This document shows, piece after piece, positions 56,135 to 59,100 of a stretch of DNA of 64,000 nucleotides (within the stretch, counting starts at the first letter, position 1; every line of letters begins with the position of its first letter). The notes beneath the pieces are model-generated. The model was not told the origin of the DNA and searched no databases. It was given only the letters and a program-made list of their open reading frames with translations. Source of the DNA: Chrysomallon squamiferum (lineage: Eukaryota; Animalia; Mollusca); contig CM022665.1 of NCBI GenBank assembly GCA_012295275.1, forward strand, positions 39,494,001-39,558,000, read 5' to 3'. A program made the position numbers and the translations under genes.

Positions 56135-59100
56135 TTAGGCTTTCTCATCTGGTTTATTAAAAACGTATGTCAAACAGCACTTTCCACAGTACTGCCTGTC
56201 GAAGTGGGATGCCATGAATACACCAGCCCCACATTTTTCATTGGGACACTCTCTGCGAAGGCGAGTGATCTTTCCATTTTCATCAACCTTCAAACAAGAA
56301 AATATAAACAATTAAATACCAATAAAGCTCAAGGCCAGAACATTTTTCTAGTTACTGAAATCTAAAACCGGAAAGATTACAATAGCGTGGAGTGACCTAT
56401 TCTGAGAACGAGTTTGTAAAATCTTAAATCAAATTTAACCCTTGCTAATTGCTTTTAGCTGTATGTATGAACAACTAGTGTGTATTAATCTCAAAACAAA
56501 AAAAACAAGCTGTTCTAATCGAAGCATTGAATTACATCAATAACAGAATAGTGGCATTTAAAGCAAAGCATTCTAAAGTGGTTCAGATGATACGAGAATG
56601 TGGAAATTGAAAATTTATGATATTGTATACAAATTGCATTGCTCAGAAACAAAGGTCATATCATATCATTTCATATGGTGTCCTAAGTAATTACATCATC
56701 GCAGAAGCAACTTGTTTATACATTTAGAGATTGTTTTCAATAATTAAACAAAAATAATATATATTAAAAAAGTTAGCCAAATGAGTAAGATGACTTATGA
56801 TATACAATTCTTTTCTAAAATGTAACGTGTTTAGTGTATGTGTGTGTGTGAAATAAACAATCCTTTTACATTTAAAATAGTGTCATAATATGAACATGTG
56901 TATGTGTGTGTGTGTATGTATATATATATATATAAATCGAGAAGATATGTAATGTCAAATTTATTAAGCAGCAGATATATGCAGTTTGATACCTGTTGCT
57001 CAGAAACAAATGAATAATCATTTTTTCATATGGTGTCCTAAGTGCTTACATCATTGCAACCAATATACATTTCTACATAAAGCAAGCAACACTTTACTGA
57101 GTAAAAAATTTTTTTAACTTAAATTGTTAGAAAGCAACAGGTATATTAAGATTGTGCTTTAGATTTATTTTTTTTAAATGTCTAATCTTTCCAACACTAA
57201 TACTGAGATTTAAAAACAACATAACATACTGATGGAACTGAAACACCATATGGATATGTGTACTTAGAATTCAAAGTACACAAAAATATGTTAAGATATA
57301 TTAGGAGAGAGAGGGGTGGGGGAGAAAAAAAAAGAAGAAAAAAAAAAGGATATATTTTGTGCTGCTCAGAAATAAAGGTAAAATCATATTTTTCATATGG
57401 TCTCCTAAGTTCTCACATCACTGCAACTTTGAAAATTCATACATTTCAATAAACATGCCAATTCACCAAGTCAAAAGGTTTTTAATCAAATAAGGATAAT
57501 AAACTTGTTTTTTTAAAACGAAATTTAAACTGCCATCAAGTAACAGGTGTACTAAGAATGGGTGAAATAGTTTTCAGATAGTCTTTTTTTATTCGCAAAA
57601 TTTATTTTTATATGCCAACAGTGAAAACTGAATGATTCTGATCTTTTTCTAAACAATACACTACATACAAGTTACAGTTTTCATTCAGATCCTCAGTGCT
57701 AAAATATAATTTCAGTAGACATCAGATGCACAATTAATATATTTATATTTCAAAATTACAGAATAGTTAACAGTAAAATTGTTGTTGATCAGTCTGAACT
57801 ATATATTAGAAGATAAAAAAAGAGGGATATTTTACATTATAAGCTTGTTTCTGTGTCGCTCAGAAACAAAGGTAAAATCATATTTTTCATATGGTGTCCT
57901 AAGTAATTACATCATGGCAACATGTGTTTTATGTCACCTGTCTTTTTCAAAAATATTTTTAATGTCTGCTCCGTATATTCAGAGCTTTACAATTTTCCTA
58001 AGATGTAATTTCAAGTCTAAACTTATCAAAAATATTTTATTTTACATTATTTAAAACAAGTATTTTTTTATTCAAATAATGGTTAAAATACCAAACAAAT
58101 AACAATACATCATTTTTACTTATATTGTACTCTTCATTAAACCGAACAGATATAATTTTTTTGTTTAAAAAGTAAAATTTTAAAATTAATTAGGAGCATG
58201 CACATATATGTACAATATCCGAAATTAAAGAGATCAATATTTAAGTTTGAAAACATAACATAATATGCATATATTGCTATTGATTTTAAACAGTGCAACA
58301 AAAGAAGTCATGAATACTGAAAATATGCAAAAACAAAGAGCCATGCTTACTGCTCAGAAATAAAATAGGTCAAATCATATACATCATATGGTGTCCTAAG
58401 AATATTTACATCATTGCAACAGCTGAATAATTATTTTTTCACAGTAGGCTTCAGACTAATTTCTAATATATCACGAGTTGTACCAGATGACATTTAAATC
58501 AGGAAACTAGATTCATTTTAATTTTGCCCTTATCTTAACTCACCTTGTAGTATTTAAGGACAGCAAGCTTGACCTTCTTCTTCTTGTGTTTGTTTTTCTT
58601 TGGAGTGGTGTAATTCTTCTTCTTTCGTTTCTTGGCGCCACCTCGAAGTCTCAACACCAAATGGAGTGTCGACTCTTTCTGGATGTTGTAGTCAGACAGA
58701 GTTCTGCCATCCTCCAACTGTTTTCCAGCAAAAATCAATCTCTGCTGATCAGGTGGAATACCTAGAAATACATTTTTTTTTTTAAATTAATTTTAAATTA
58801 CAGCCCATCTGTTGTGAACATCATGGTGTCAAAATACTGCACTTCTCACCAACAGATACAGGTTTATAAAATTTCCCAGATTAAAAATAATTCTGTATTA
58901 CAAGCATTAGTTGTCAGCGATAAATATTTATACTGTCTTATTCAATGAAATACAAATCAATATATTTAATTTTTTTTTTTTTTTTTAAATAATTTGCTAA
59001 CATGAGAATTATTTTATCCTCTATACACACACATACAGGTTGTTCTTTAAAACTGGGCATGCTTATGGTCACCCTCTTCAAAGAGTTATTATAAAAGTGT

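What the first reader, a model, noticed from the sequence alone, without database searches (positions are those of the whole stretch)
56638..58420. Five tandem U58-like box C/D snoRNAs inside a single RPS27A intron
Seen: five ~67-nt copies spaced about 360-500 nt apart in the last intron (56288-58543). Each keeps box C, D', D and a terminal stem, some with G:U pairs, while the spacers have largely diverged. Known: vertebrate U58/SNORD58 carries the guide CTTAGGACACC against 28S GGUGUCCUAAG and is hosted by RPL17. Animal intronic C/D snoRNAs are usually one per intron because exonucleases trim the debranched lariat; two in one intron yield snoRNA-capped long RNAs (sno-lncRNAs, as at human SNORD116). 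Inference: this intron needs either endonucleolytic polycistronic processing or cryptic/recursive splicing between copies, or it produces a ~1.8-kb snoRNA-ended lncRNA with internal guides. It also implies a host-gene switch relative to vertebrates.
Basis: partly seen in the sequence, partly recalled or inferred. Interest (0 to 1): 0.85.

Follow-up and report, generated by a model that had tools for sequence, protein, structure and literature searches.

The report
Five guide RNAs in one intron
The last intron of an animal ribosomal-protein gene (RPS27A) holds five conserved copies of a small guide RNA that matches a conserved spot in the large ribosomal RNA and likely directs a methyl mark there; this is a clear, somewhat larger example of a layout already annotated in flies and worms, and how the copies are cut apart is untested.

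Summary
Five SNORD58/U58-type box C/D units lie on the minus strand in the last RPS27A intron (56288-58543); 0 of 100 shuffles gave any match. Cores are 75-88% alike while flanks are unalignable, so each copy looks selected. All five hit Rfam SNORD58, but below its cut-off.

The interpretation needs three corrections. (1) By the D+5 rule the copies point to the U equivalent to human 28S Um4227, not Gm4228; copy 3 has one guide mismatch. (2) The host switch is ordinary: this family sits in RPL17, tpt1, Sf3b3, RPS7, RPS8 and polyubiquitin genes elsewhere. (3) Several C/D genes in one intron are already annotated in animals (fly RpL28, worm top-2; three each), and two metagenome contigs show 2-4 SNORD58 copies without a coding exon seen between them.

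Hidden exons between all copies are unlikely; only copy 2 could sit in a cryptic mini-intron. Best guess: monomers matured from a shared intron (0.55); a snoRNA-ended long RNA is the main rival (0.22). RNA contigs showed no junction and cannot decide. This scan earlier noted a similar H/ACA array on other DNA.

The parts
58349..58419 (-). SNORD58-like C/D snoRNA copy 1 (box C from 58414, guide 58400-58390, D' from 58387, D ends 58354); 129 nt from the 5' splice site
   Evidence: (SNORD58 26.7 bits)
57855..57920 (-). copy 2 (box C from 57915, guide 57903-57893, D' from 57890)
   Evidence: (28.3 bits)
57361..57426 (-). copy 3 (box C from 57421, guide 57409-57399 with one mismatch, D' from 57396)
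   Evidence: (25.1 bits)
56995..57059 (-). copy 4 (box C from 57054, guide 57042-57032, D' from 57029)
   Evidence: (32.0 bits)
56638..56704 (-). copy 5 (box C from 56699, guide 56687-56677, D' from 56674); short terminal stem but a longer external stem; 355 nt from the 3' splice site
   Evidence: (34.2 bits)
56288..58543 (-). last intron of RPS27A, 2256 nt, GTGAGT...TTTGAAG
56135..56287 (-). RPS27A last coding exon (residues 108-157 and stop)
   Evidence: Pfam Ribosomal_S27 77.6 bits; aligns from residue 108 of solved RPS27A chains
58544..58761 (-). RPS27A coding exon (ubiquitin C-terminal half and S27a basic N-terminus)
60890..60944 (-). RPS27A coding exon (ubiquitin residues 17-35)
61122..61177 (-). 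RPS27A first coding exon, ATG at 61169
61945..61975 (-). inferred non-coding first exon with a pyrimidine tract (TOP-like); no transcript evidence
   Evidence: sequence; inference
57794..57937 (-). possible cryptic mini-intron around copy 2: donor-like CAG|GTGACA at 57937, acceptor-like sites with next base 57798 or 57793, 61 and 66 nt after box D
   Evidence: RNA contigs read through both sites unspliced at depth 2.6-3.5

Best explanation
The last intron of RPS27A carries five tandem, individually conserved SNORD58-type box C/D genes that likely mature into separate 65-70 nt guide RNAs and are predicted to methylate the ribose of the 28S rRNA uridine equivalent to human U4227. Shown: the copies, their boxes and stems, conservation against diverged spacers, 11-bp complementarity (10 in copy 3) to the eukaryotic LSU segment GGUGUCCUAAG, and an A five bases before D' in all five. 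Inferred: the array arose by local tandem duplication; since no copy lies at the usual 65-75 nt from the real 3' splice site, the core proteins would load on the stems independently of splicing; after splicing and debranching, exonucleases trim to whichever copies are protein-bound, so an intron with one loaded copy yields a monomer directly, and multi-copy pieces (0.42-1.78 kb) would be intermediates opened by cuts in the unstructured AU-rich spacers, as must happen for the fly H/ACA intronic clusters. The nuclease is unknown.
For: Cores 75-88% identical (z 9.8-15.3) while 150-nt flanks do not align (z -1.3 to 2.3; 20 comparisons). Internal copies 2-4 keep full 5-bp stems. Copies 5 and 1 have extended external stems (z -3.7 and -2.1). 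Spacers show no shared fold (z -1.9 to +1.8). Only one donor-like site in the four spacers reaches the range of 15 donors from the window. One-per-intron relatives sit 65-71 nt from the 3' splice site (6 copies in L020, L100, L101, L080) but copy 5 is 355 nt away. Target segment present in 35 LSU loci, and the published offsets fix the U in 34 of 35. Register fits published maps: fly guide has a 1-nt spacer (Rfam consensus) and fly has Gm but no Um at the pair; Xenopus lists SNORD58 for both sites (supplement of PMC11014333).
Against: No small-RNA, Northern or raw-read data; the only RNA evidence is low-depth unspliced contig pieces from one study, which could be DNA. No endonuclease signal was found in the spacers. 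In mammals two C/D RNAs in one intron give a stable sno-lncRNA (PMC4234469, PMC11028025). Conservation of internal copies would also follow if they work as guides inside a longer RNA (PMC8609340 notes C/D RNAs functional when not fully processed). Rfam scores are below the family cut-off (25-34 against 42). The organism's own 28S was not seen; the target comes from other eukaryotes. Splice models rest on 15-16 sites (9 distinct donors).
Confidence: 0.55

Rival explanations
1. The main product is a snoRNA-ended long RNA: copy 1 and copy 5 block the exonucleases, leaving about 1.78 kb (or a ladder of 0.42-1.43 kb) with internal copies that still load proteins and guide methylation.
For: This is the default outcome in mammals when two snoRNAs share an intron, including mouse Rpl13a (PMC4234469 passages). 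The two end copies have the strongest extended stems. No cleavage signal in spacers.
Against: Spacers are unconserved in length and sequence and carry microsatellites, so the long RNA has no sign of a function of its own; fly intronic clusters with up to about ten members are annotated as separate snoRNAs. No long contig spans the array in 3 RNA runs (weak, low depth).
Confidence: 0.22
2. A minor, non-productive splice form uses hidden non-coding exons so that some or all copies get their own intron (as in NMD-coupled snoRNA hosts).
For: Copy 2 is bracketed by a donor-like site (57937; 5.6-6.8 bits) and acceptor-like sites 61 and 66 nt after box D, the canonical distance. Four of five copies are followed by a pyrimidine-rich 20-mer (at least 16 of 20; 9% of background windows; noticed after the fact).
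Against: No donor in the range of real ones between copies 2-3, 3-4 or 4-5, and no fair acceptor between 4 and 5 (best 0.8 bits), so copies 3-5 would still share an intron. No joint in 3 RNA runs; contigs read unspliced across 57937 and 57798. Donor-like sites are no denser in spacers (5 in 1447 nt) than in introns 1 and 3 (24 in 2886 nt).
Confidence: 0.15
3. Only one or two copies are used; the rest are decaying duplicates.
For: Copy 3 has a mismatch next to the target position; copy 5 has a short terminal stem; all have a non-canonical last base in box C.
Against: Boxes and guide are kept in all five although the flanks have diverged beyond recognition, which neutral decay would not give; gene conversion limited to cores is possible but cores differ by 12-25%.
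Confidence: 0.07
4. Assembly artefact (one gene repeated by mis-assembly).
For: Only one window is held; the DNA run covers 16 of 30 bins of the laid stretch.
Against: Copies differ by 12-25% with unique flanks; contigs of a DNA run and of RNA runs join copies 2, 3, 4 and 5 to their own flanks (table 8).
Confidence: 0.01

Closest known systems
SNORD58/U58 (Rfam RF00151), fly snoRNA:Me28S-G3113a/b (RF00531), Arabidopsis snoR10
   Same: Same 11-nt D' guide against the same LSU segment; best Rfam family for 4 of 5 copies and a hit for all 5.
   Different: Below gathering score; clean AUGA D' box after a 2-nt spacer (fly: 1-nt). All 25 SNORD58 rows and both fly G3113 rows seen in Table S1 of PMC11028025 are one per intron (first 300 of 389 pages); host here is RPS27A (0 rows in that part).
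Annotated animal intronic clusters of box C/D genes: Drosophila Or-CD11a/b/c in RpL28; C. elegans K12D12.6/.7/.8 in top-2
   Same: Several C/D genes, tandem paralogues by name, sharing one intron of a protein-coding host (annotation-based rows).
   Different: Three members against five here; the fly trio is named as orphan, whereas these have a conserved rRNA target. I saw 90 of 366 'intronic cluster' places, so larger C/D clusters may be listed further on.
Drosophila intronic clusters of H/ACA snoRNAs (Arpc2, dom, RpS5a, RpS7)
   Same: Tandem isoforms in one intron of housekeeping or ribosomal-protein genes.
   Different: Other snoRNA class; PMC3089462 states that fly C/D loci follow one per intron.
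sno-lncRNAs (human SNORD116 region, mouse Rpl13a SNORD33-34, LNC-SNO49AB)
   Same: More than one C/D RNA in one excised intron.
   Different: Those often arise by alternative splicing and have two ends only; here the main intron itself holds five, and no long RNA has been shown.

Membership tests
Box C/D snoRNA | Box C near the 5' end and box D (CUGA) near the 3' end | tested here: met
   RUGAUGU and CUGA in 5 of 5, 55-61 nt apart; last base of box C deviates
Box C/D snoRNA | Internal D' and C' boxes | tested here: met
   AUGA and AUGAU(U/A)(U/A) in 5 of 5
Box C/D snoRNA | Terminal stem bringing C and D together | tested here: met
   23 of 25 cells paired against 20-60% for slid partners; no compensatory change, so covariation is not shown
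Box C/D snoRNA | Antisense element of 10 or more nt to rRNA just before D or D' | tested here: met
   11 of 11 pairs in four copies, 10 of 11 in copy 3, against LSU loci of other eukaryotes; the organism's own 28S not seen
Box C/D snoRNA | Accumulates as a small nucleolar RNP with fibrillarin and directs 2'-O-methylation | not testable with these tools
   only contigs of long-RNA libraries were available
SNORD58 (RF00151) | Score at or above Rfam gathering threshold (42 bits) | tested here: not met
   25.1-34.2 bits, E 2e-4 to 0.08; so filed as SNORD58-like, not as a curated member
SNORD58 (RF00151) | Guide CUUAGGACACC against the U4227/G4228 segment | tested here: met
   exact in 4 of 5; matches the Rfam consensus
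Intronic snoRNA cluster | Two or more snoRNA genes in the same host intron, sense to the host | tested here: met
   five copies, same strand as RPS27A, no coding exon missing
Intronic snoRNA cluster | No non-coding exon separates the copies in any isoform | tested here: inconclusive
   site scores argue against it for copies 3-5; copy 2 open; no joint in low-depth contigs
sno-lncRNA | Stable long RNA whose ends map to the outer snoRNAs | not testable with these tools
   contigs show neither ends nor levels

The most novel reading that the evidence does not exclude
The constitutive last intron of a highly expressed ribosomal-protein gene yields a stable 1.8-kb RNA strung with five active methylation guides (a multi-guide snoRNP), or is cut by an unidentified animal C/D polycistron endonuclease; SNORD58 arrays in single introns of RPS8 and a ubiquitin gene of other animals suggest that this recurs across invertebrates.
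Probability: 0.2. Interest if true: 0.7.

Novelty: new member of a known kind. Interest (0 to 1): 0.33.

Why it matters
How several box C/D RNAs are released from one animal intron is poorly worked out, and this locus is a clean test case: five distinguishable copies with a conserved target, in a housekeeping gene, with ten predicted intermediate sizes. The invertebrate copies have a clean D' box and split into 1-nt and 2-nt registers, which predicts which of two adjacent rRNA nucleotides each marks; read the same way, the vertebrate SNORD58 sequence would point to U4227, a human site listed without a guide in two papers seen, though tables already link this family to that site in Xenopus and in a cross-species comparison.

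Tried and rejected
Rfam at gathering threshold over the whole window: 0 hits. No genome is held for the window and the metagenome records could not be extended, so no orthologous RPS27A intron was compared; none of the 126 loci held the S27a part. RNA evidence covers 55800-58600 only; both flanking exons had almost no RNA contig cover, so the missing main junction and the missing joints prove nothing. A 31-nt contig shared by copies 2 and 5 at depth 12 in one RNA run is a collapsed repeat, not evidence of a mature RNA (it is also doubled in the DNA run). Recursive AG|GT sites: two in spacers (57937, 56992), both with negative acceptor scores. RNase III-type spacer hairpins: no spacer folds clearly better than shuffles. 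A second guide before box D: only weak, inconsistent duplexes with the 90-nt target region; the rest of rRNA was not searched. Other snoRNAs in RPS27A introns 1-3: best hit E 0.35, box C only. rRNA pattern in viral contigs: 0. One search had the stem one column off and was redone; searches had 1 of 15 donors one base off and donors were redone. Many of the 126 pattern loci are chance bacterial matches and were dropped by requiring a canonical box C and a stem. Huang et al. 2005 (PMC1370813) was not held.

Full report
Observation. The minus strand of 56638-58419 holds five copies of a 65-71 nt unit. The pattern box C, guide, box D matches 5 times in the 64-kb window and 0 times in each of 100 shuffles; a profile from the five finds no further copy. 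All five hit Rfam SNORD58 (25.1-34.2 bits, cut-off 42) and copy 5 also hits fly Me28S-Gm3113; nothing reaches a gathering score. Boxes, guide and spacer are tabulated: box C RUGAUGU, guide CUUAGGACACC (copy 3 CUUAGGAGACC), spacer AU, D' AUGA, D CUGA.

Host. The gene is RPS27A (ubiquitin-S27a) on the minus strand. The last exon matches Pfam Ribosomal_S27 and aligns from residue 108 of solved 156-aa chains; the three upstream coding exons give 107 residues. The 2256-nt intron 56288-58543 therefore lacks any coding exon.

Selection. Cores are 75-88% identical (10 pairs, z 9.8-15.3), whereas 150 nt on either side do not align (20 comparisons, z -1.3 to 2.3). The 5-bp terminal stem pairs in 23 of 25 cells with one-sided wobble changes only. 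Internal copies are as intact as the outer ones, apart from the guide mismatch in copy 3.

Target. The offsets of Arabidopsis Gm2620, Am2641, Um2651, Gm2652 (table passage of PMC8583080) fit only one position, the U of GG[U]G, in 34 of 35 loci with enough flank; that U is human 4227. The base five places before D' is A in 5 of 5 copies, so the D+5 rule (established knowledge) predicts Um, not Gm4228. Published maps agree with such a register reading: the fly guide has a 1-nt spacer and fly has Gm but no Um at this pair, Arabidopsis snoR10 is assigned the U, Xenopus SNORD58 copies are listed for both, human Um4227 is 'unknown' (Table S4 rows of PMC11014333; PMC11550049 table passage; PMC5027482 Table 2 passage). 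PMC3511168 already lists RF00151 beside Um4197 (table passage), so the link is not new. Among 35 distinct metagenome matches with a canonical box C and a stem of 4 bp or more, 12 have NNGA after two bases, 6 after one, 1 after three and 16 none.

Relatives. Host exons were named by Pfam on 148 and 144 chosen frames and tblastn: RPL17 (L004), RPS8 (L097), RPS7 (L080, below cut-off), LYAR (L056), Pumilio (L042, L110), a chromo-domain gene (L005), polyubiquitin (L020, L100, L101; one per intron, 65-71 nt from the 3' splice site). Table S1 of PMC11028025 adds tpt1 in zebrafish and Sf3b3 in fly. Host change is thus the rule, as PMC3511168 (passages) and PMC6984369 (one passage) argue. Two parallel clusters turned up: L125 has two copies 318 nt apart before a ubiquitin exon with no ubiquitin-coding exon between them (973 of 2672 nt seen), and the contig of L121-L124 has four copies after an RPS8 exon, with only 43 unseen bases between the first two, whose flanks still align; that this is the penultimate RPS8 exon is recalled, and two larger gaps (224 and 325 nt) are unseen. 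Five of these six copies pass the SNORD58 cut-off, one scores 41.5.

Hidden splicing. Acceptor-like sites follow copy 1 (37 nt) and copy 2 (61 and 66 nt), none of note lies between copies 4 and 5. So copy 2 could have a 140-145 nt mini-intron, but copies 3-5 would still share one. Contigs of 3 of 4 RNA runs (one study) and one other run were laid on 55800-58600: no joints, low-depth unspliced pieces, two of them across the copy-2 sites. They cannot show ends, levels or absence.

Mechanism. Copy 5 is 355 nt from the 3' splice site, so none has the position linked to splicing-assisted assembly (about 70 nt; PMC1821038 passage citing Hirose). Copies 5 and 1 have extended external stems (fold z -2.15 for copy 5); that such stems allow splicing-independent assembly is recalled. 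A toy calculation shows that if each copy loads proteins with probability 0.1-0.2, 61-80% of products are monomers by trimming alone, while at 0.5 or more most are multi-copy; this is arithmetic, not evidence. Splicing-independent endonucleolytic release exists in animals (XendoU; PMC10557570 passage). I put monomers at 0.55, a stable long RNA at 0.22, partial hidden splicing at 0.15, decaying copies at 0.07.

Comparison. Animals mostly follow one snoRNA per intron, and 'intronic cluster' is a recognised category (PMC11028025 section 3 part 1; PMC12205218 passage). PMC3089462 (passages) says fly C/D loci are single and H/ACA clustered. Yet Table S1 lists C/D clusters: three in worm top-2 and Or-CD11a-c in fly RpL28 (places 1-90 of 366 seen, annotation-based). 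All 25 SNORD58 rows seen are mono-intronic. Eight literature searches showed no report of SNORD58 in RPS27A or of a five-copy C/D cluster in an animal ribosomal-protein intron; most subscription papers and bioRxiv supplements are outside the library. Also seen as passages only: bioRxiv 2023.05.25.542231, PMC13228274, PMC4234469, PMC8609340. Earlier notes of this scan include a six-copy H/ACA array in an RpL3 intron (unchecked); none matched this sequence or genome.

Verdict. Real, selected and correctly located; a new member of a known kind, uncommon for the C/D class and larger than the precedents I saw. Interest 0.33.

Noticed in passing
L004:787-852 and Rfam RF00151 consensus: Vertebrate SNORD58 reads guide-UU-UGGA; taking UGGA as D' gives the 2-nt register and points to U4227, the human site listed without a guide, rather than G4228.
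   Followed up: partly
L121-L124 (one 4190-nt marine contig): Four SNORD58 copies (46-48 bits) after an RPS8 exon; at least the first two appear to share an intron and their flanks still align, a recent tandem duplication.
   Followed up: partly
L125:298-678: Two SNORD58 copies with 2-nt register in what looks like one intron of a ubiquitin or ubiquitin-fusion gene.
   Followed up: partly
L020, L100, L101: Polyubiquitin gene in which each ubiquitin repeat has an intron at the same codon and each intron carries a C/D-like RNA, some U58-type and some with other guides.
   Followed up: partly
L039:1149-3883: Three U58-type paralogues in one gene, two with a 1-nt and one with a 2-nt spacer before AUGA: a single-base change that would shift the target from G to the neighbouring U.
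   Followed up: partly
L022/L032/L067 versus L037/L047/L062: Two separate U58-type families, one in each register, recur in these loci, which would cover both adjacent sites.
   Followed up: no
L005, L110, L094-L098, L121-L124: These U58-type RNAs carry a second conserved element CGUUACC shortly before box D, possibly pairing just upstream of the main target.
   Followed up: no
window 36235-54006, minus strand: Gene with at least 12 alternating thrombospondin type 1-like exons; several introns use GTTAGT or GTCAGT donors without the usual exon G.
   Followed up: partly
window 62000-63460, plus strand: TTC7-like gene running away from RPS27A, head to head (Pfam TTC7_N).
   Followed up: partly
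window 59346-59392, minus strand: Box C-like AUGAUGA in RPS27A intron 3 with a weak hit to fly Me28S-U3344 (E 0.35) but no box D nearby; possibly a relic.
   Followed up: partly
window 57304-57352, 57805-57830, 58316-58345, minus strand: Pyrimidine-rich tracts follow copies 1-3; could be relics of a duplicated 3' splice region, nuclease sites or chance.
   Followed up: partly
L127-L162: Eukaryotic large-subunit rRNA pieces occur as small contigs inside many prokaryote species genomes (contamination).
   Followed up: partly
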